Of a stretch of DNA of 64,000 nt, positions 1 to 17,889 are shown in pieces (the first letter of the stretch is position 1; the number at the start of each line of letters is the position of its first letter). The position numbers and the translations under genes are program-made. Source of the DNA: Isurus oxyrinchus (taxonomy: Eukaryota). The stretch is taken from assembly GCA_026770705.1 (NCBI GenBank), contig JANJGN010000001.1:38378001-38442000 (forward strand). Reading direction: 5' to 3'. The notes under the pieces are model-generated. The model did no database searches. It worked only from the letters and a program-made list of their open reading frames with translations, and was not told the origin of the DNA.

Positions 1-320
1 GGACATCTCTGTGGCTTGAAAGGATATTGGAGAGGGAGGGGGAGGATGCAGTTGTTGTGGTCCACGCTGGGACAAATAACATAGGTAAGACTAGGAAAGA
101 GGACCTGTTTGGGGATTATCAGGAACTAGGAACTAAATTAACGAACAGGTCCTCAAGGGTTATAATCTCTGGATTACTACCCAAACCACGTGCTAATTGG
201 CATAGGGACGTGAGAATAAGGGAAGTAAACACATGGCTAAAGGAGTGGTGCAGGAAAGGGGGGTTCCATTTCATGGGGCACTGGCATCTGTATTGGAACA
301 GGAGGGATCTGTACTGTTGG
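1..320 (+). mobile_element. CR1 LINE ORF1 fragment (SGNH/GDSL esterase domain), truncated by the window edge
   Basis: ORF 27-359 has VVVHAGTNNIG...VIISGLLP...WLKEWC...F.F..HW, typical of the CR1 ORF1 esterase. It is an inverted copy of ~546-865. Confidence 0.85.
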
Positions 321-1924
321 GCTCTCCTGGGCTCTCCTTTCTTTTCAGTTTTTTCATAATTTTCCATGATGTTGAATCCACCCCCCCACATGCTAACCTG
401 CTGCTTTGTTTCTCATTAGTCATACTTCTTGGAGTTTTACCCTTCCCTTCCCCCCACACTTTCTAGTTTAAAGTCCTGTTGACCACTCTATTTACCCTTT
501 TTGCTAGAACATTGGTCCCAGATCAGTTCAGGTGGAGACCGTCCCAACGGTATAGATCCCTCCTGTTCCAATACTGATGCCAGTGCCCCACAAAATGGAA
601 CCCCTCTTTCCCGTACCACTCCTTTAGCCACGTGTTTACTTCCCTTATTCTCGTGTCCCTATGCCAATTTGCACGTGGTTCGGGTAGTAATCCGCAGTTT
701 ATAACCCTTGAAGACCTGTTCTTTAATTTAGTTCCTAGTTCCTGATAATCCCCAAACAGGTCCTCTTTCCTAGTCTTACCTATGTTATTTGTCCCAGCGT
801 GGACCACAACAACTGCATCCTCCCCCTCCCTCTCCAATATCCTTTCAAGCCAGTCAGAGATGTCCCTCACCCTGGCACCGGGCAGGCAACATACCATGCA
901 GGACTCTCGATCCTGCTTACAAAAGATGCTATCAATTCCCCTAATTATAGAAACCCCTACAACTACCACGTCTTTGTGCTCCCCACTCTTGAATGGCCTC
1001 CTGTGCCACGGTGCTGTGGTCAGCTGGCTCATCCTCCCTACAGCCCTGTTCCTCATCCACACAGGGAGCAAGTACCTCGCACCTGTTGGACAAGGTGAAG
1101 AGCTGAGGCTCCTCTGTTCCTGAACACAGGATCCCTCTACCTGCCTCACATGCAGTCACACCCTGCTGACCCTGACCACTGACCAAATTTAAGGTACTTA
1201 ATCTACCGGGTGTGACCCCTTCCTGAAACAAAGTGTCCAGGTAACTCTCCCCCTCCTGGATGTGCTGCAGCATCCGGAGCTCAGACTCCAGCTTATCAAT
1301 TCTGAGCCGGAGTTCCTCCAGCAATCAACACTTGCTGCAGATGTGGTCACTGCGCCTCGCAATGGGATCTGCCAGATCCCACATCATACAGCTACAGTAC
1401 ATCACCTGCCCAGCCATCTCCACTTAGATAATTAATTTATTAATTAGCTTTGCAGTGTTTTTTTTTAATTTGGTGCAGATTTTCTACCAACCAATCAGGT
1501 CACTGCTTTCCTGTGACATCACTTTTTCAATTTTGGCTTCAGTTAATCTGTGCCCCGAGGTCACCGCTCCAGTGCTCCTCCCTCTGAGTCTGGTCCCTGG
1601 AGACAATGCTGTGAATCCCCAAGGTAAGCTAGATTTATACTCACCGCTCCGGTGCTCCTCCCTCCAAGTCTGCTCCCTGGAGACAAGGCCGCGAATCCCC
1701 GAGGTAAGCTAGATTTATACTCACCGCTTCAGTGCTCCTCCCTCCGAGTCTGCTCCCTGGACACAAGGCCGCATATCCCCCAGGTAAGCTAGATTTATAC
1801 TCACCGCTCTGGTGCTCCTCCCTCTGAGTCTGCTTCCTGGAGACAAGGCTGCGAATCCCTGAGGTAAGCTAGATTTATACTCACTGCTCTGGTGCTCCTC
1901 CCTCTGAGTCTGCTCCCTGGAGAC
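321..1924 (-). mobile_element. CR1 LINE 5' part: 5' UTR plus frameshifted ORF1 (Zn-finger/leucine zipper + SGNH esterase)
   Basis: ORF 941-1324 gives LEELRLRIDKLESEL (zipper). ORF 523-1149 gives VVVGVSIIRG, CCLPGARVRDI, HAGTNNIG, DGLHLN (esterase blocks). Confidence 0.88.
1561..1924. repeat. 80-bp tandem array (~4.5 units) in the CR1 5' UTR
   Basis: Unit nAGGTAAGCTAGATTTATACTCACCGCT...GTGCTCCTCCCTCnnAGTCTGCTCCCTGGAGACAAGGC..GAATCCCC starts at 1621, 1701, 1781 and 1861. A partial unit starts at 1561. Confidence 0.95.
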
Positions 1925-7020: not shown

Positions 7021-7023
7021 ATA

Positions 7024-7304
7024 TGTTGTGTGTGCCTGCATGCCATTGTAATGTAAAGGTGCTCGGCAGAGCAAGAGTTAACATGGGACTGGAGAATAGC
7101 ACCACCCATGGTATGACATATAGAGTCACATGGTAAAAGACCAGAGAACAATTTAGAAGGAACCAGCCTGCATGGGAGCGGCACCATGCATGGCAGTAAC
7201 TGGGATCTATACATAGATAAGGATTATCAATAAATAGTTCATGTTTAGACATACAAATCTCAAGATCTCAATAATGAGACACGAAATCAACCCATAACAC
7301 AACA
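7024..7304 (+). repeat. 5' LTR of element 1 (281 bp)
   Basis: TG...CA ends with an 8-bp terminal inverted repeat and an internal AATAAA. Its first ~100 bp recur at 11123-11222. Confidence 0.85.
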
Positions 7305-7989
7305 TGGTGATCAGCAGTGGCATGAAAGGTGGCATTCAAATGATGAACTCAGAACAGAATCCCAAGAAATGAAAAAATAAAAGTAGCTGAAGCCTGACCA
7401 GAGAGATGTGCACCTAGGAAGAAACATTGAAGAAACAGTTGAAGAAGCTTCCCTACAGAGTTGCAAGTTAAGGAATCCACCAGAGTGAGTGGTGGCCCAT
7501 TGTAATATCCTGAGTCACGCAGTGAGGAACCTGGTCAGGTCACAAGATATGTGAGAAAAATTACGAAAAAGAGACCCTGAGAGATACAGAGTGAAGGAAC
7601 CTAATCAGATCACGGGACAAGTGTGCAAAATTACAAAAATATCTGTACTTACATTGTTGAATACGTAGCAGTTCCAGGGGCTCAGCATCCAGAGGGCAGC
7701 TGAAAGAGAGCTGCAGAAGGTGCCTAGAGCCGGCACCATAACACGTATTGGATGTACTGCTCTGAAGTGAATTTTTTAAAATAAGAACCTGCAGAGTTTA
7801 AGTAAGAAGAATCACCCTGAAATTGGTTTTACAGCTCTGAGGAGCAAATTGCTACATTTTTAAAAGTTTTAAAAAAAGGAAATGGCCTATGATGATGAAG
7901 GAGCCTGCCAAACCTGAATCAGTGTGGGAAACTCACAAAGAGAAAACCTACAGCCTGAGGGAATAAAACAGATAGCCTTATAGATGCAG

Positions 7990-8330
7990 TGGCATTTAAA
8001 GGTGCAACCAGTACAAAAAGAAACAGCCAAGGACAGAAAATTAGGAGAACCAGACCCATTTTGGATAAGGAAACAGCTAAACCAGACCCAAGAGTGGGAG
8101 TCTTCGAGAAGGGGATTTTTTGTTTACAGGAGAATTACAGGGTTAAATAAGGAATCACAAGAAGTACAAATTGATGTGTTTTTATTCGTTTTTGTTTCAT
8201 TTGCAGTGAAGTACTCCACAGCCAACATATAGATCAATACTCGATTACATTTGGTGAGATATTGAAAGTCTTTGACGGATATTATAAACTCCAAGTTGTG
8301 GAGAGCGCAGAACCTAGAAGAAGGTCTAGC
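7990..8330 (+). pseudogene. Gypsy gag N-terminal remnant
   Basis: PDPF...QEWESSRRGFFVYRRITGLNKESQEVQIDVFLF resembles the P.PF..EW..W..RF..YR...L....E.QI..LL start of Gypsy gag. Confidence 0.55.
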
Positions 8331-8359
8331 ATACCACCCAACAAAGTGCCATGTGCAAC

Positions 8360-8455
8360 AAAAGACCCTCAGTGAGGGCAACAGAAGAACCTAGAGCAAG
8401 GGAAACAAAAGACCCCAGAGTGAGGGAGACATAAGACCCCAGAACGAGGGAGACA
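8360..8455 (+). repeat. 24-bp tandem repeat, 4 copies
   Basis: Units at 8360, 8384, 8408 and 8432 (consensus nAAGACCCCAGAGTGAGGGAGACA). Confidence 0.85.
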
Positions 8456-8499
8456 ACGTTCAAGTATACCACAGGATGGTTGCCGACCATGTCAGTGCA

Positions 8500-10330
8500 A
8501 TGAAATGCATGAACTGAAGTGTTAGTGCAGAAGAAAGAAATGGCTAAGAAGCAGCCAAAAGGATTAAAAATAGAGCATTTTGAAAATGCTGACACAGTAA
8601 ACAAACTACAACAGGAGATTGCAGTGCCTAGTGAGCAGATGGCTATGAATGAAGGAAAACTACCTGAGGTAACGCAAAAGAAGCAAAACATGCAAAAAGT
8701 AAATTAAGCTTTTCTACAGGAAAACATTCACATCAGAGCTGAACTGGAAGATTTGAAGTGCAAGATTCAAGCTGAGAAAATGCACGATAAACTGAAATCT
8801 TCAATGAACTAAGTTGTTCAAGATCTGAACAAACAGATTTCAATAACGACACAAAGGATGTAAATGCATTGGAGGCAGCTCAAAGGAGGTTTACTAGATA
8901 GATACCTGGAATGAGTGGGTTGTCTTATGAGGAAAGGTTGGACAGACTGGGCTTGTTTCCACTGGAGTTTAGGAAAGTGAGGAGTGATTTGATTGAAGTA
9001 TACAAGATCCTGAATGGCCTTGGTAAGGTGGATGTAGAAAGGATGTTTCCTCTTGTGGCTGAGTCCAGAACTAGGGGTTTCTATTTTAAAATTAGGGGTC
9101 ACCCTTTTAGGACAGAGATGAGGAGAAATTTTCTCTCTCAGACTTTGGAATTCTCTGCCTCAGAAGGTGGTGGAGGCAGGACCATTGAATATTTTTAAGG
9201 CAGAGGTAGATAGATTCTTGTTAGGCAAGGGAATCAAAGATTATCAGGGTTAGATGGGAATATGGAAATTGAAACACAAGAAGATCAGCCATGATCTTAT
9301 TGAATGGCTGAGCAGTCCCAAGGGGCCAAATGGCCGATTCTTGTTCCTATTTCTTATGTTCTAAAGTTATCAGGAGGAAATAATGACCCTCAATTACATT
9401 GTTGGCAAATCAAAGCAGGAGTTGGGAAAACTCAAACCAGATGTACAGCCAGGCAAATCAGCAGGTGGAAAGTCACACAAAGAAGTTGTGACCCTGAAAG
9501 ATTCCTTGAAGAATCAATATGTAGCCATGGAAAAACATGAGGAGCGAAAAAGGACATTGAATATTACTTCAGAAAAACCTGCATTGGAATTATCAGTTGC
9601 AACAAACAATACACTGAAGCCCAGCGTGAATTGGGAAGAGGTCAACAAGAAAATAAACAGTTGAAAGAACAGTTGATTGTCCATCAAGATCAAATGCAAA
9701 AGAAGTGCATAACCATTCAGCAACATGAAGAAATGAAGACTGTCTTAAACAGCAGCATGGAAGAACAGCAGAATAAACTCAAGGAGGCTCCACTGAATTG
9801 CAGGAAAACTCAAGATGAGCCAAGTGAGCTTTATAAAGAATAGAAAAGCCTGTTGAGAGACCTTCACGTGCTACAAGGATCCCTCAGGTCAAAGTTTGTT
9901 CCTCTGGAAAATTACAGGGAAGCAACATTAATTTAACGTCACTCTGAACAAACTGAAGGACAAGTTGTTAGAGAAGACTCAGTAATGTTTCATAGTCCAG
10001 GAGGAAGCCCAAAGCTACAAGAATAAGACTGAAGAGTTAAAGAACCAGCTGAATGAAAAAAGGAGGCATTGAAAGGAAAAACTGTAGAACTTTCCAAGTT
10101 GCGAGTGGATAATGAAGTCATGAGTAGCACAATTACAGAACTAAAACAAGTTAAGACTTCACCGGAGACAGACCTGGCCAACAGTGAAACCAAATTAAGG
10201 ACAAGAACAAAGTCCTGTCGCAGACAGAGAAAGAAAAGACAAAAGTGAGATTGGAAAATGTAAATCTGACACTGAAGCATAACAAACTAAAAAAAGAAAC
10301 AGCACTGGGTGTCTCAGATATACTGAGCAC
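8500..10330 (+). pseudogene. Captured UACA/RAI14/ANKRD24/ANKRD35-like coiled-coil sequence (degenerate; CR1 inserted at 8857-9362)
   Basis: DKLKSSMN*VVQDLNKQISITTQ|SYQEEIMTLNYIVGKSKQELGKLK; SLKNQYVAMEKHEERKRTLN; ENKQLKEQL..HQDQMQKKCITIQQHEEMK; LQGSLRSKFVPLENYRE. These are colinear with the UACA coiled coil as I recall it (e.g. NQYVPVKTHEEVKMTLN). Confidence 0.7.
8857..9362 (+). mobile_element. 5'-truncated CR1 LINE inserted in the element 1 cargo
   Basis: MSGLSYEERLDRLGLFPLEFRKVRSDLIEVYKIL. 3' tail TTCTTATGTTCT. AAAG direct repeat at 8853-8856 and 9363-9366. Confidence 0.9.
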
Positions 10331-10851
10331 CATTGAGCTGATTGAAAACATTCATAAGATTGTAAAATGATTTGAAAATAAAACAGTAAATGAATGTTTG
10401 GCTGAAATTGTGAAACAAGTGGAAATGAAGATTCCATTTGCAAAATGGCAACATCCAGCAAGAACATGCAGGACTCCATGGAAAAAGAGAATTTGAGTCT
10501 AAGCTAGGACTGAATGGAGTGCACAATCCCCTTGGAAGGAACGGGACAAACTCGCAATGTTGGAAAAAAGCAGACGGGTTGTTAACAAAGAGAAATGCAA
10601 CTCGAAGGAGCACTAAAAGCAAATCATATGGAGATAACCAAGTACCAGAAACACAGAGTACTACTATCATTCCTCCAAATGAGACAGACCGCGATGTGGA
10701 GGAACTGTAAAGCCTCATGGCTGTCTGAATTTATGAAGTCAGAGACTTGGCGTGGGGGAGAATGGATAACAAGTAAAGATTGTATTGTAAATAGCTATAC
10801 TCCTTTAGAAGGGAGGAAAGTTTTCCTTTGAGAAGAAAGGAGATGCTGTGT

Positions 10852-11067
10852 TTTTTAAATTCATTTTATGGGATGTGGGCATCGCTGGCTAGGCCAACAT
10901 TTATTGCCCATCCCTAGCTGCCCTTGAGAAGGTGGTGGTGAACTGCTTTCTTGAACTGCTGCAGTCCATTTGGTGTAGGTAAACACATAGTGCTGTTAGG
11001 GAGGGAGTTCCAGGATTTTGACAGTGACAGTGAAGGAACAGTGATATATTTCCAAGTCAGCACGGTG
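10852..11067 (-). mobile_element. Family-B LINE 3' end inserted at the start of the element 1 3' LTR
   Basis: TTTT..ATGGGATGTGGGC...ATTTATTGCCCATCCCTA.TGCCCTTGAGAAGGTGGTGGTG, the same 3' end as at 21380 and 54258. Confidence 0.9.
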
Positions 11068-11719
11068 AAAAAAAAACACAACATCCCCCTTTTTCTGAGA
11101 AGAAAACTTTCCTGCCTTCTAACGTAGTGTGGGCCTGCATACCATTGTCATGTAAAGGTGCTCAGCAGATCAGGGGTTAACATGGGACTGGAGATGAGCA
11201 CCACCCACAGTATGCAGAGTCAGCCACACTCATGCTGGCTGAGCTAAAAATTCTGCCCATAAGCTCAGGATAGATAGTAATTGCAAAAAAGAGCCCTGAG
11301 AAATTGTGAGAAAATAAGTGAAACAAATTAATAGATGAACAGGGATCGTTGGTTGCAGGAAAGGGCAGAGTGGATGCAGCTGCTCCAGAGCCATATTTTA
11401 TCAACATCCAGGCTTTGGCTTCATCTCCAGTTGATGTGGGCTTGGGTTGGTGTCAATCTGGGGGCCCAGAATTGCCCTACAAAGGAGTAATCTAAAAGCA
11501 GCCTTCGAGCATTTATTTTTCTACAAAATCACTTCTCCCAAAGAATAATATATTTTTTTTGTGCTTTCTTTTTAATTCTTTGAGTCACCCTTTAAAATGC
11601 TTTTGAAAATATAATATTAATATGGTTACAATTGTTTAAATCCAGTTGAAACCCACATTCTCTGCAGTATCCCAGGGTCAAGTACAGTAAGCTTGTCATA
11701 TCTGTCCCCCCTACGGTGT

Positions 11720-12462: not shown

Positions 12463-13311
12463 TACTGTTGTTCCATTAGGTAATCCAAACAATAGTGCTG
12501 GATGGGAGCAATTGCACTCCTTCATTTTTAGTTGTTGGAAACTTAATTTCCTTTTTAATACATAATTGGTGAACTGAGTAATGTAATTTACAATCTTCAC
12601 CAGTTTTGGTGGGCACATTGGTGTTAACGTAATTTGCCAGCCATGCAGGGTGGATGGTAAAGCCAAACAGCTAAGCAACCTATTTTTAAAAAAGAGAAAT
12701 CTCACTTAGAAACCGTCCCTCCAAATTTTTAGCTGTTGCACCCAGAATCACAGAGGTAATTGCACTTCAATAAGCTGCGAGCAGCTGACTGAAACTGCTC
12801 AAGACCCAGCATTGTCTGAAATCAATGCAGCCTTTTGGATAAGTAACTACTCATTGAACTGCACAAAATAACCAGCATGCGTAATGTGGTGTGGCCACAT
12901 AATTTGGCTTTGCAGTGCTGGTGGTTTTGGTGCTAAACCATTTGAGGTAAAAAATGGTGGGGTTGCCTATGTAAGGGTGGCCAAGCTGCTCCTATTGTTG
13001 GTAGAGTTGATCAGCAGACACTCCTTGGGTGGAAACATTAAGTTTATTTACAATGTACTCAGCAGCAACCACACGTGTGCTTTCAACTCCAACTCTATCT
13101 CTGCACTGACTGCTCAGGTAGCTCATACTACTCTCCTATTGGTTACTACAGATCACATGATCTTCCCTAACACGTATTATTCTTAAAGGTACATTACTCA
13201 CTAAATAAAACCATAATTACTACATTCCTCCCCATTCAACTTGGCTATACAGATTATATTTACAAGTACATATTTTTCAAGACCAAATAATATTTACACT
13301 GGATGAGGAGT

Positions 13312-14770
13312 TTACAATTTCAGTCTTTCAGGTGGTTTCCTGGTATGTGTGGAACGTCGCAGTTCCACAACTTCAGAATCTTTGTCAAGAACCTCCTTTT
13401 CTGGAGTTGCCTGAACATCAGGTGCTTCGGTGAGTACTTGTAGTTCTATATCCTCAACTCTTACTGGAACATCAGACTTGTCTGTCCTGGGTCGAGTATC
13501 CTCAACAGGAAATGCAGATCCAGTCATGATCACTGGTGGAACTAAATCTTGGTGATTTGTCTCTCCCTTTTTTAAATGGTCCACATGTTTACAGATGATC
13601 CAGCCTTACACCTCCACGTGGTAAGATAGAGATCCAGTCACTGCACTTATTTCACCTGGTAACCACTTTGGTCCTTCCCTGAAGTTTTTCATGTATGCCG
13701 GCTCTCCCATGGTAAATTTCCTCTGGCGACTATGCCAGTTGTGTCTAGTTTTCTGGCTTCCCTGACTCCTTTCCACCTTCCCCTCTAAATTCAGCATTAT
13801 TAAGCTCAATTTCATCCTGAGACGGCGTTTCAACAATAACTCCGCAGGTGTGACACCTGTTGTTGTTTGAGGGGTAGTCCTGTAATGAAAAAGAAAGCCT
13901 GCTAGCTTGGTTGCCAAGGAATTGCCAGTTAGCTTTTTCATGCCTTCCTTGAGCGTTTGAACTGCCCTTTCGACCAGTCCATTTGAGAAAGCATGGTACA
14001 GTGCAGTTTTTACATGAGTGATACCACTGAGGCTGATAAACCATTGAATCTCAGCACTTAGAAATGCTGTGCCGTTGGCGGAAACAACTACTTCTGGTAG
14101 TCAGGGAATAGCAAAACTTTGACGTAGTTTGTCAATTGACTTCACCTCATATACGTCCAACCATTTCAAATGGGCATCGACAATAAGCACAAACATTGTT
14201 CCCAGGAAAGGTCCAACAGAGTCAATGTGTAACTACACCCAGGGTCTACCTGGCCACTCCCATGGATGTAACAGAGCTGTCACTGGCAACTCTTGCAGTT
14301 GTTGAAATTGCATACAGCGCTTTGCTAAACTCTCTAATTCGCCATCCATCCCAGGCCACCATGGATAGCTGCGTGCTATGGTCTTCATTTGGGAAATTCC
14401 TGGATGGAGACTCTGTAGTTCAATCAAAAGTGGCTCCCTTTCCTTTGAAGGAACTATCACTTGTGCTCCCCACAATAAGATGCCATCCTGGCTATTTCAT
14501 TTCATCAGATACGGGCTCCTGTGACCAACCATACAGCACTTGTTCTCGCACTTGAGATAGGATTGGGTCCCGACTTATTCAATCTCTGATCTGTCAAGCA
14601 CGTACTGGCAAGGAATCTAAGGAATTTAACAGTGAAACAAGTTCCTGTGGAACTGAGACACACTCATCATTTTCTTGTGAAGGCAAACGACTAAGGTCAT
14701 CAGCATTTACGATTTGATTGCCAGGCCTATGTACGAAAGTGTATTCATATGCTGCCAGAATTAAAGCCCT
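13312..14770 (-). pseudogene. Gypsy RNase H C-terminus + integrase (frameshifted)
   Basis: RALILAAYEYTFVHRPG..NADDLSRLP; LHPGISQMKTIARSYPWWPGMDGE (Zn-binding region); FLFHYRTTPQTTTGVTPAELL; LRRSTHTRKPPERLKL*. Confidence 0.9.
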
Positions 14771-14897
14771 GTTAGTATCTCTGTATCTTCTTTCCACGTG
14801 ACCTTCTTCTTTCTAGCGCAGACTTTAATCTTGGCCATCTTTTTGACTTCACTATTGGCCAAACTTCACTCAGATGCAAGCTCCACTTCTCTGAGCT

Positions 14898-15255
14898 TTA
14901 TTTTTCATTCGTTCATGGGGTGAAGGCATTGCTGGCTAGGCCAGCATTTATTGCCCATTTGTTCAGAGGGCATTTTAAGAATCAACCGCATTGCTGTGGA
15001 TCTGGAGTTACATGTAGGCCAGACCAAGTAAGGACAGCAGATTTCCTTCCCTAAAAGGCATTAGTGAATCAAATGGGTTTTTACAACAAGTGGCAATGGT
15101 TTTGTGGTCACCATTAGGCTTTTAATTCCAGGTTTTTTATTGAATTCAAATTTCACCATCTGTCATGGTGGGATTTGAACCCAGGTCCCCAGATAACTAC
15201 CCTGAGTCTCTAGAATACCAGTCCAGTGACAATACCACTATGCACTGCCTCCCCC
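14898..15255 (-). mobile_element. tRNA-headed SINE made of the family-B LINE 5' end plus 3' tail
   Basis: A-box-like GTGCATAGTGG and B box GGTTCAAATCC. The body matches 53845-54113. The tail GGGCAATAAATGCTGGCCTAGCCAG matches family-B 3' ends. AGCT flanks both sides. Confidence 0.85.
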
Positions 15256-15425
15256 AGCTCAGTGGCTGAGTCTCCCAAAATTTAATTACCTGTCTGCTTC
15301 TTGGAAAATTCTACAGCTTTTGCTTCCAAAGCCTTTTTGACTTCATTTAGCTGATTCTTCAGTTCTTCTGCTCTTTTTTGTATTTGTTTGCTGCCTCCTG
15401 GAAAATAGAACATTGCTGTGTCTTC

Positions 15426-15581
15426 TGGATCTGCACCTAAAGTGCTGTAAGCTACAGGGCTATGGGCCGGATGCAGGAAGGTGGGATTAGAAAAGGCACC
15501 TGGGTGTCCTTGGGCTGACATGGACAAGATGGGCTGAATGGCCTCCTTCTGTGCTGTAACTTTTCTATGGTTCTATGGTTC
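15426..15581 (+). mobile_element. Short CR1-type 3' tail insertion
   Basis: GATGGGCTGAATGGCCTCCTTCTGTGCTGTAAC followed by a (TTCTATGG)2 tail. It interrupts the cargo. Confidence 0.8.
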
Positions 15582-15899
15582 TCTGCCAACTCATTCTTCA
15601 GCTTGTTTGGAGAAGTGCTGAATTCTTTCTGTTTCTCTTTATACTTTTCCAGAGGTACAAACTTTGACCTGAGGGAATCTTGCAGTCTGTGCTTGTCTTT
15701 TAACAAGTTCTGTTTTTCCCTGTGAATGTTGCTCACCTTGTCTCAATCTCTGTCATCAAGCAGGGTCTCTTTGAGTTTCTTCTGCTGTTCTTCCAGGTTT
15801 TCACTTAAGACATCCTGCATTTCTTCAGGTTGTTGAGTTCTTACACATTCCTTTTTCAAAACAGGAACGCTTCTAGCTTCCTTCTGGAATCTCAGTGGC

Positions 15900-16234
15900 C
15901 AATTAAGGTTGTTTTCCCTTAACCAATTTCACCCTAGAAGGCTTGGTCCTCTGCCTTTCAATACTAACACTGGTAGCTTTGCCAATTGGCTTCCATAATG
16001 GACAGTTACTCTGCTTATGCCTTTTACTTGAATGTCTTCACCCATATAGGTTTTTAGTTTGGCAGCAGCTTCTTCTAAATTTAATTCATGTTCGCCATTT
16101 TTCAGATATCTGAAGGTATGTTCCCCAATTACTGTAGTGGAAGCTCCCGTGTCCACTTCCATTCTAACAAGTTTGCTATTTACTTTCACTGTGACAAATA
16201 TTGGTTCTGTCTTTCCAACTTTCAGGTTAAACAA
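15900..16234 (-). pseudogene. Gypsy aspartic protease
   Basis: VRMEVDTGASTTVIGE ... GPSLLG*NWL, where the stop is probably a CGA>TGA change in LLGRxWL. Confidence 0.9.
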
Positions 16235-16339
16235 TGAGTAAGTGTCTAAATTTGTTGCTTCAGGCTCTTCTACATTGTAGATTTTATTGGGCTTCTTCTT
16301 TTGTTTACAAGCCTGCTTGAATCTTTCCTTAGTGTCTCA

Positions 16340-17080
16340 CTATATGTCCATTTCTATGACAATAGTAGCACTTGATTGTTTTAAACTGCCAATCGTTAAA
16401 AGACTGATTGCTTCTGCCTCTATTAAAATTATCCTTCCATTTTGCTGCTAAGTTATTTTTCTTTATTCTTCGGCTAGCAGGTTTCCCACTTCTCGGCAGA
16501 GTTTTACATTTTCACACTTTTTTGGTTGGGGTTTCCTGCCTGATGTGGAGGACGGTGCCATTTTGCCTTTGAATCTCTTACTGCACCTTCCATGGCCAGT
16601 GCTATCTCTAGCACCTTCTTGATATCCAGATTCACTTCAGAAAATAATCTTTTCTGAATAGTGTCTTCTTTCATGCCACAAACTAAACGATCTCTGAGCA
16701 TGTCATTTAGAGTTGTACTGAAATAACGATGTTCCATTAGCTGCTTTAAGTATGCCACGTAGCATGCAATTGTCTCACCCAGGGCTCTATTTCACAAATT
16801 AAACCTGAACATCTGCTTCGTGACTGAGGGCTTTGGTTGAAAAAGACCCTTTACAAGGTCCACCAGTTCACCAAAATACTTTGGAATCTGGGGCACTAGG
16901 TACCGTCAAACTTTGAATCAGACTGTAAATTTTGTTCCCAAAAGCGCTTAAGAGGATTGCTTTCCTCTTCTCTTCTCCCGTAATCTCGTCTGCTTGAAAA
17001 AAGAACATGAGGCATTCTATGTAATGAGGCCAATTGTCTATAGCTGGTTCAAAAGGATCAATTCTCCCAAAATGTGGCAT
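16340..17080 (-). pseudogene. Gypsy gag
   Basis: MPHFGRIDPFEPAIDNWPHYIECL..FF.A..I..EEKRKAILLS; LNDMLRDRLVCGMKEDTIQKRLFSE. Confidence 0.9.
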
Positions 17081-17889
17081 TTTGAGAGGGGATTATTTCC
17101 TCGATTCTAAAGGAGCTTGCTATTTACAATCACTGGGCGAGGTGCAGTGCCAATTTCTTTCTAACTTGATTTCTTGTGTCTAATCTTGTTTTATCCTCCT
17201 TATTGTAAGGTTGGCTAAGTTGCTACTATTGTTGATAGAGTTGATCAGCAGACACTTCTTGGGTGGAAACATTGAGTTTATTTACAATGTATGATTGTAC
17301 GTGTGCTTTCAAATCCAATTCGATCTCGACACTGATTGCTCAAGTAGCCCACATTACTCTCCTATTGGTTACTACAGATCATGTGATTTTCTCTAACAAG
17401 TATCATTCCTAAAGGTATATTACACACGAAATAAAACCAAAATTACTCCATTGCCACTCCCACCAACTTCTTCTGCGGTCTGCGCCGATTGACATGCTGT
17501 GTAGGACAATAGTGCAGGCTCCTTGTGCATATGTGGGAAGAATGCAGAGTGAATGGATTGTCAGTCAGTGCCTTGGTGGCCAATCTGACGTTTTCAACCC
17601 TGTTGTTTCTGTTAATTCCCTGGCTTAAACATGGTAATGTGAACATGATTCAGCTGCACAGGCCGTCACCACCAACACCACACCCCCTCCACCCCTTCCT
17701 CCAAGAGGCATTGCCCAACAATTTGCAAGTAAGGCACTTTTATCTACTTGCTTTTGCAAAGTTAGTGGAAATTCTATGTTATTGGAAGAGTTGTGAGAAG
17801 TTGTTGGGTCAGAAGAGAGTGGTGCTGGGAAATTAAGAAAGAGTTGTGTATTTTTGAAAGGCTACTGAGTTCACCACTTCTTTGCAGTC

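What the first reader, a model, noticed from the sequence alone, without database searches (positions are those of the whole stretch)
7305..10843. Element 1: most of gag-pol replaced by ~1.3 kb of intronless host-like coiled coil
Only a gag N-terminus and an integrase C-terminal tail remain between the PBS and PPT. Removing the CR1 insert (AAAG TSD) restores a continuous frame ...VVQDLNKQISITTQSYQEEIMTLN.... The cargo extends further N-terminally than in element 2 (NQYVAMEKHEERKRTLN). Two ~70-bp leader repeats at ~7520-7640 may be packaging signals. This looks like oncoretrovirus-style transduction of a cellular sequence by an LTR retrotransposon.
Basis: partly seen in the sequence, partly recalled or inferred. 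Interest (0 to 1): 0.7.

Follow-up and report, generated by a model that had tools for sequence, protein, structure and literature searches.

The report
Retrotransposon carrying three stitched host genes
This is a dead copy of an old jumping-gene family, in what is likely a shark genome, whose own enzyme genes are replaced by in-frame pieces of three host coiled-coil genes (UACA, ninein and intron-free TPR), likely copied from messenger RNA; it spread to probably thousands of sites and likely handed part of the cargo to a second, unrelated jumping-gene family.

Summary
Element 1 is a decayed non-autonomous Gypsy-type LTR element: LTR, primer site, gag start, cargo, integrase end, PPT, broken LTR. 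The cargo comes from three host genes on three chromosomes: about 1.0 kb of one large UACA exon, a ninein exon piece and TPR. Longer copies join TPR exons exactly, never exon-to-intron, so capture was from spliced mRNA. Of 39 loci picked by LTR alone, 20 carry cargo, 16 are solo LTRs and none is autonomous. LTR pairs are about 84% identical. Fragments appear in catshark and white-shark gene models. Shared deletions keep the frame, and shared stop codons are scarce (0 of 89, 5.4 expected). Amino-acid constraint is mixed across tests. Element 2 belongs to a younger, unrelated Gypsy family that carries element 1's already-deleted UACA piece in frame behind its protease. A third family carries TPR the same way. 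The mechanism, LTR-mediated retroposition, is published (PMC5131818). The scale, the three-gene frame and the relay were not found in my searches. Unchecked scan notes report similar captures (CLIP1, RABEP1, Myc) in other cartilaginous fish. Function of the cargo is untested.

The parts
7023..7304 (+). 5' LTR (about 282 bp, TG...CA)
7305..7322 (+). Primer binding site; Leu-tRNA-like by recall, tRNA match not tested
7525..7639 (+). Two leader repeats, 70-nt period, 78% identical core; function untested
8050..8330 (+). Gypsy-type gag N-terminal remnant (about 80 codons)
8366..8456 (+). 24-nt tandem repeats (three or more copies), length a multiple of 3
8470..8653 (+). Unidentified coding-like segment shared by the family, in frame between gag and UACA in open copies
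   Evidence: no source found
8654..8856 (+). UACA cargo, part 1 (host exon nt 859 onward, about residue 688 of P0004)
8857..9366 (+). Later LINE 3' fragment (CR1-type by recall) with AAAG target duplication; private to this copy
9367..10146 (+). UACA cargo, parts 2 and 3, after a 102-nt deletion and across a 450-nt deletion at about 10044
10147..10236 (+). Unidentified 90-nt linker shared by the family; also starts a Carcharodon gene model (P0018)
10237..10348 (+). Ninein cargo remnant (271 bp in longer copies)
10374..10439 (+). TPR cargo remnant (exon 12 piece; longer copies hold spliced exons 3-12 with deletions)
10440..10736 (+). Parent-element 3' coding tail ending in the integrase-type K-P-x-x-x-L-N-L stop; same frame as the TPR piece
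10830..10843 (+). Polypurine tract
10844..11214 (+). 3' LTR: first 7 nt, then a LINE fragment (about 10851-11068), an inverted PPT/LTR-start piece (11071-11128) and an LTR remnant (11124-11214, 87% to the 5' LTR)
15300..15860 (-). UACA cargo of element 2 (unrelated Gypsy family), including element 1's 450-nt deletion junction, in frame behind the protease

Best explanation
Element 1 is a decayed copy of a non-autonomous Gypsy-type LTR family whose gag-pol interior is replaced by in-frame pieces of UACA, ninein and spliced TPR, likely acquired when reverse transcriptase switched template onto co-packaged host mRNAs and likely spread with enzymes from an autonomous relative. Shown: the anatomy, the three donors, the exact TPR splice joints, short repeats at most deletion joints, frame-keeping joints, many dispersed copies, and the same deleted UACA piece in a second family. 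Inferred: successive template switches inside particles built the mosaic, later switches trimmed it into subfamilies, and one moved the trimmed piece into the element-2 family in place of reverse transcriptase. Coiled-coil mRNAs were likely favoured because their purine-rich, codon-phased repeats offer many in-frame switch points. Replicating lineages were likely selected mainly to keep one open frame from the gag start to the native stop (for RNA stability or translation-linked packaging), so the coil acted as a tolerated spacer with weak amino-acid constraint rather than keeping its host function.
For: Donors: UACA (host exon at C25:4881192-4883918), ninein and TPR. Next TPR exon at offset 0 in 15 of 20, 7 of 15, 14 of 20 and 15 of 18 scored copies, and intron in none (89 loci screened, 9 of them from the third family). 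Shared deletions are multiples of 3: 450 nt in 46 of 58, 102 in 36 of 41, 282 in 7 of 8; TPR 96 in 16 of 19 and 186 in 14 of 16. Repeats of 7-13 nt at four of six joints examined. Natural stop-free stretches cross gag to UACA (L067) and UACA to the tail (P0001, 288 aa). Alleles that split lineages: 50 replacement to 39 silent, against 2592 to 911 for private changes (p=3.6e-4); 0 stops of 89, 5.4 expected; the signal holds for transitions alone (p=0.002). No refresh from the host: at host-specific residues the copies keep the older residue in 14 of 22 and 17 of 23 sites. Element 2: all 39 other scored hits span the protease-UACA junction, in phase in 10 of 12. Cargo-less relatives share gag, tail and LTR, and one (L216) retains protease, RT, RNase H and integrase remnants.
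Against: In-frame joints are partly expected by chance: 52-90% of exact 5-8-mer pairs within and between these donors are already in frame, and junction phases across the linkers are noisy (11 of 21, 8 of 14). Constraint is uneven: the branch between the main and less-deleted subfamilies shows 19 replacement to 7 silent changes (neutral-like); transversions show no deficit (23 to 3); TPR split alleles are 16 to 6; stops occur in 1 of 37 and 3 of 43 split alleles when subfamilies are tested apart. No autonomous copy with this LTR was found in 39 LTR-, 20 tail- and 40 gag-picked loci, so the helper is not identified. Composition bias as the reason for coil capture was not tested against other mRNAs.
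Confidence: 0.6

Rival explanations
1. Functional adaptor. The chimeric Gag-coil protein was useful to the element: the TPR piece would act as a decoy or tether at the nuclear basket that helps unspliced genomic RNA leave the nucleus or particles reach chromatin, and the UACA and ninein rods would add oligomerisation or centrosome targeting.
For: Three unrelated families place a host coil in frame behind gag or protease: element 1, element 2 and a SCAN-gag family with a 345-aa protease-TPR frame. Replacement changes are depleted in the pooled test, within the main subfamily (19 to 17, p=0.007) and on the branch to element 2 (11 to 15 single-step, p=0.04, with 8 multi-hit codons left out). TPR retains CTE-type intron-containing retroviral reporter RNA (PMC4198930, passages read).
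Against: The most amplified subfamilies deleted most of TPR and ninein; this copy keeps 66 bp of TPR. TPR shows no constraint among split alleles (16 to 6). One internal branch is neutral-like. Nested deletions remove different parts in different subfamilies.
Confidence: 0.22
2. Pure hitch-hiking. The cargo was never translated to any effect; in-frame joints come from codon-phased microhomology alone and spread depended only on LTR, primer site and packaging signals.
For: Chance in-frame rate 52-90%; neutral-like branch and transversion class; cargo-less deleted relatives also spread.
Against: Pooled deficit of shared replacements and stops; no shared stop on two element-only branches (0 of 26, 0 of 34, each low in power); frame kept again at the independent protease junctions of two other families.
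Confidence: 0.15
3. A LINE-made retrocopy, or a DNA-level duplication of host exons, landed in an LTR element afterwards.
For: UACA and ninein pieces lie inside single exons, so they alone cannot show an RNA stage. LINE insertions are common here.
Against: TPR is exactly spliced. All pieces are internal to coding regions, with no 3' UTR or poly(A). They replace gag-pol rather than interrupt it, come from three chromosomes and join in frame.
Confidence: 0.03

Closest known systems
LTR-mediated retroposition in animals (Tan et al. 2016, PMC5131818; abstract and passages read)
   Same: Internal ORFs replaced by partial mRNA, microsimilarity at joints, multi-gene chimeras (up to four genes in one mouse locus), and secondary retroposition as non-autonomous elements.
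   Different: The passages read describe single loci or a few insertion sites. Here the chimera founded subfamilies with likely thousands of copies, kept one frame, and passed to another family.
Maize Bs1 (as reviewed in PMC13317346; passages read; original papers not read)
   Same: LTR element with pieces of three host genes fused into a chimeric frame.
   Different: Bs1 is described as transcribed and translated today and carries enzyme and pump fragments. This family is dead in all copies seen, carries only coiled coils among identified donors, and is in a vertebrate.
Crocodilian ERVs CrocERV29 (KIT-ligand) and CrocERV31 (nectin3) (PMC4299795; passages read)
   Same: Vertebrate LTR elements that captured host mRNA, multiplied, and show purifying selection on the cargo.
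   Different: True retroviruses, one near-complete gene each, 6-9 copies, signalling or adhesion proteins.
Acutely transforming retroviruses with gag-onc fusions (recalled, no call)
   Same: Gag start fused in frame to host coding sequence, replication genes lost, helper needed.
   Different: Gypsy parent without env in the loci seen; cargo is structural rod fragments with no catalytic or signalling domain.

Membership tests
Gypsy/Ty3 LTR retrotransposon (non-autonomous derivative) | Paired LTRs with TG...CA ends, PBS and PPT | tested here: met
   33 two-LTR copies, mean identity 84.3%; PBS survey. This copy's 3' LTR is broken.
Gypsy/Ty3 LTR retrotransposon (non-autonomous derivative) | Short target-site duplication | tested here: inconclusive
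   Exact 5-bp duplications seen by eye in L095, L096, L181 and near-exact in L088, L100 of 33 copies; not systematically scored, and not scorable in this copy.
Gypsy/Ty3 LTR retrotransposon (non-autonomous derivative) | Retrotransposon gag, and pol order PR-RT-RH-INT in the parent | tested here: met
   Gag of relative L170 matches Retrotrans_gag clusters (0.96). Relative L216 shows that order, with PF17921 over cut-off. L216's LTR does not match element 1's.
Gypsy/Ty3 LTR retrotransposon (non-autonomous derivative) | Placement by RT phylogeny | not tested
   The element has no RT; no tree was built for L216.
LTR-mediated retrocopy (Tan et al. 2016) | Spliced or exonic host sequence replaces internal ORFs | tested here: met
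LTR-mediated retrocopy (Tan et al. 2016) | Microsimilarity at element-mRNA fusion points | tested here: inconclusive
   Seen at four of six internal deletion joints. The outer joints border unidentified segments and could not be scored.
LTR-mediated retrocopy (Tan et al. 2016) | No poly(A) tail or target duplication around the cargo | tested here: met
   Read directly in this copy; all mapped cargo ends are inside coding exons.
LTR-mediated retrocopy (Tan et al. 2016) | Secondary retroposition as a non-autonomous element | tested here: met
   Dispersed two-LTR copies sharing the same joints.
Endogenous retrovirus with transduced oncogene | Retroviral gag-pol-env parent and growth-promoting cargo | tested here: not met
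   Gypsy-type gag and parent; identified cargo is coiled-coil rod only.
Bs1-like expressed chimeric gene | Chimeric frame transcribed and translated today | tested here: not met
   This copy has several stops and frameshifts, and the longest stop-free cargo stretch among loci L039-L115 is 321 aa. Other copies genome-wide were not all examined.

The most novel reading that the evidence does not exclude
Cartilaginous-fish Gypsy elements repeatedly recruited host coiled-coil rods as working modules: three unrelated families fused UACA, ninein or TPR coils in frame to Gag or protease, traded them between families by template switching, and used the TPR piece as a decoy against nuclear-basket retention of unspliced element RNA. 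That would be a retrotransposon accessory protein built by exon shuffling from host genes.
Probability: 0.22. Interest if true: 0.85.

Novelty: new variant of a known kind. Interest (0 to 1): 0.62.

Why it matters
The capture route is published, but mostly from one-off loci. Here nested subfamilies record the build-up, trimming and transfer of a three-gene chimera, with enough copies to measure selection on captured sequence while it replicated. That makes testable whether captured host DNA in LTR elements is ballast, a frame-keeping spacer or a tool. It also shows a route that seeds thousands of host-exon fragments through a vertebrate genome; these already appear in gene models of two other sharks (P0007, P0008, P0018) and can mislead annotation, repeat masking and RNA quantification of UACA, NIN and TPR.

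Tried and rejected
Pfam scans of 16 cargo and gag fragments gave nothing over cut-off; a word-based protein search with the TPR piece found nothing, its length window excluding full TPR; the atlas gave only generic coils for it. TPR was identified by a family search of the genome and a full HMMER scan instead. The source of 8470-8653 was not found in Pfam, PDB, the donor proteins or the donor loci held; the linker 10147-10236 matched no donor locus. Autonomous partner: none among 39 of 39 LTR hits, 20 of 39 tail hits, 20 of 150 gag hits and 20 of 150 hits to a relative's gag; the pol probe came from a distant family and is weak. Common origin of TPR in the third family: shared non-host sites are 25 silent of 30, as expected from later host change, and the two families keep different parts of exon 3, so neither derives from the other's present form; a shared older capture is not excluded. 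Refresh from host mRNA: rejected. Expression: no RNA holder listed. Contigs of four guessed-RNA runs, three labelled as another organism, lie on family sequence at low identity; this cannot show transcription of the element. Absolute age: no shark rate found, so none is given. Copy number: search candidates are not counts; 0 cargo hits in 545 kb of unrelated loci and 2 separate extra copies (L052, L066) in 1.18 Mb of family loci give only an order of thousands (3 of 5 extra clusters were split copies). Literature searches listed no paper on this family; subscription journals, Repbase and Dfam could not be searched, and supplements of the papers read were not opened. The first look-up of scan notes returned an unrelated micro-exon gene family.

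Full report
Setting. The window is G000:C1:38378001-38442000 in a 4.98-Gb genome. Its host genes match shark proteins best (UACA exon 84% to a Mustelus protein, 81% Scyliorhinus, 72% Pristiophorus), so a shark is inferred.

Anatomy. The stretch 7023-7304 is the LTR: other copies end in it and 33 two-LTR copies could be paired. It is followed by a primer site, a leader with two 70-nt-spaced repeats, about 80 codons of gag, 24-nt repeats, the cargo, a short parent-type tail, a purine tract at 10830-10843 and a 3' LTR broken by a LINE piece. The 510-bp LINE insert at 8857-9366 has AAAG at both sides and is private to this copy. The copy is dead: it holds stops and frameshifts throughout.

Donor 1, UACA. 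A 288-aa open stretch from another copy hit three shark UACA-like proteins and nothing else. The host exon is at C25:4881192-4883918, 909 codons without a stop. All cargo mapped lies within nt 859 to about 2420 of this 2.7-kb exon. Subfamilies differ by nested deletions; element 1 has the commonest pair, 102 and 450 nt.

Donor 2, ninein. A profile of the next segment hit ninein of four shark records. The host exon is at C19:47.78 Mb. Copies hold up to 271 bp of it; the window keeps 10237-10348 at 70% identity.

Donor 3, TPR. Pfam PF25481 scored over cut-off at all 150 scored places of 1646 candidates. The top hit and PF07926 locate the host gene at C16:74.25-74.31 Mb. Longer copies match eight host pieces spread over 15 kb in one contiguous run. 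At four splice joints the next exon follows at offset 0 in 15 of 20, 7 of 15, 14 of 20 and 15 of 18 scored copies, and the intron follows in none. The span is exon 3 to exon 12, counted from the start codon. This shows an mRNA stage.

Family size and age. First-look candidates were 4978 for cargo DNA, 2811 for the LTR and 1388 for the tail; 40 were scored each time, at 79-87% identity apart from self. These are not copy numbers, but flank density agrees with thousands. Of 39 LTR-picked loci 20 carry cargo, 16 are solo LTRs and 3 have internal sequence without cargo; 19 of 20 tail-picked and 18 of 20 gag-picked loci carry cargo. LTR pairs are 79-88% identical, mean 84.3%. At residues where the host differs from all three other sharks, copies keep the older residue in 14 of 22 and 17 of 23 sites and the host residue in 3 and 2, so capture predates most host-specific change. 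A Scyliorhinus torazame model aligns to the same TPR exons with the element's gaps (P0007), and a Carcharodon model begins with the UACA-linker junction (P0018).

Parent and helper. Cargo-less relatives share the gag start, and several share the tail or LTR at 69-84%. One relative's gag scores as retrotransposon gag. L216 is a decayed full element with protease, RT, RNase H and integrase in Gypsy order but a different LTR. No autonomous copy with element 1's LTR was found.

Was the cargo translated? All five common deletions are multiples of three, and natural stop-free stretches run from gag into UACA and from UACA through to the tail. In the window the TPR piece and the tail share a frame. 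Against this, 52-90% of short repeats in these donors are in frame anyway. A frequency test compared changes shared by lineages with private ones. Pooled: 50 replacement to 39 silent against 2592 to 911 (ratio 0.45, p=3.6e-4), and 0 stops of 89 against 5.4 expected. Transitions carry the signal; transversions do not. UACA carries it; TPR (16 to 6) does not. Within the main subfamily it holds (19 to 17, one stop), but the branch between main and less-deleted subfamilies is neutral-like (19 to 7, no stop). CpG-context sites and codons with unstable neighbours were dropped before counting. I read this as selection to keep a frame open, with weak and uneven protein constraint.

Relay to element 2. 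Element 2 is a different Gypsy with another LTR. Its protease-to-UACA junction is its own family: 3784 candidates, and all 39 other scored hits span it at 89-91%, so it is younger. It holds UACA nt 1527-1856, element 1's 450-nt deletion junction and, in 3 of 12 copies by this search, the linker, so it took the piece from element 1's family, not from the host. Protease and coil are in phase in 10 of 12 copies. On that branch single-step changes are 11 replacement to 15 silent, with 8 multi-hit replacement codons set aside and no stop.

A third family. The nine other top PF25481 hits fetched belong to a 5-kb LTR family with SCAN-like gag. It carries spliced TPR behind the protease, in a 345-aa open frame in L152, and no UACA or ninein.

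Mechanism. Most likely (0.6): template switching onto co-packaged mRNAs, helper-driven spread, and selection for an open frame, with coils favoured by composition. Shown: anatomy, donors, splicing, joints, spread, relay. Inferred: switching inside particles, the helper, the reason for frame keeping. The adaptor reading (0.22) draws on three families doing the same thing and on TPR's role in retaining CTE-type unspliced RNA (PMC4198930, passages read), but the most successful subfamilies lost most of TPR. Pure hitch-hiking gets 0.15.

Known and new. Tan et al. 2016 (PMC5131818; abstract and passages) describe the route, multi-gene chimeras and secondary retroposition. Bs1 (PMC13317346, passages) is the three-gene precedent, and crocodilian ERVs (PMC4299795, passages) the vertebrate one. 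My nine paper searches listed nothing on this family. Scan notes (unchecked) report similar captures in other cartilaginous fish and pointed me to Tan et al.; none covers this sequence. Verdict: real, a new variant of a known kind, interest 0.62.

Noticed in passing
L152:3381-8431 (G000:C8:127.01 Mb) and L149-L157: Third LTR family with SCAN-like gag, protease fused in frame to spliced TPR, then another unidentified helical segment (L152:6409-6693, no Pfam hit).
   Followed up: partly
window 13000-17450, minus strand: Element 2 belongs to a younger high-copy Gypsy family in which RT is replaced by element 1's UACA piece while protease and integrase are kept; some copies (L226, L227) keep more RNase H.
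   Followed up: partly
L039, L040, L045, L050, L171: Subfamily with permuted cargo: the 3' UACA piece and linker sit before the 5' UACA piece, suggesting duplication then deletion.
   Followed up: no
L165:3600-8400: A near-full element-2-type Gypsy is inserted inside the UACA cargo of an element-1-type copy; such nesting could have supplied the read-through RNA for the cargo transfer.
   Followed up: no
L199-L218: Many cargo-less relatives are about 3-kb gag-protease elements lacking RT and integrase core, a large non-autonomous group (20252 first-look candidates for the gag).
   Followed up: partly
P0018 (Carcharodon mucin-13-like model): Its first 49 residues match the element's UACA-linker junction: either an annotation artefact or an exonised copy.
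   Followed up: no
flanks, e.g. L062, L070, L075, L076: Many copies have a TGTTGTATGA-like 10-mer just before the LTR start used here, so the true LTR edge may lie 10 nt further out in some subfamilies.
   Followed up: no
window 11071-11128: Inverted copy of a PPT and LTR start next to the broken 3' LTR.
   Followed up: no
window 12-852 and 1561-1960: A 310-nt inverted repeat pair (94%) and an 80-nt tandem array.
   Followed up: no
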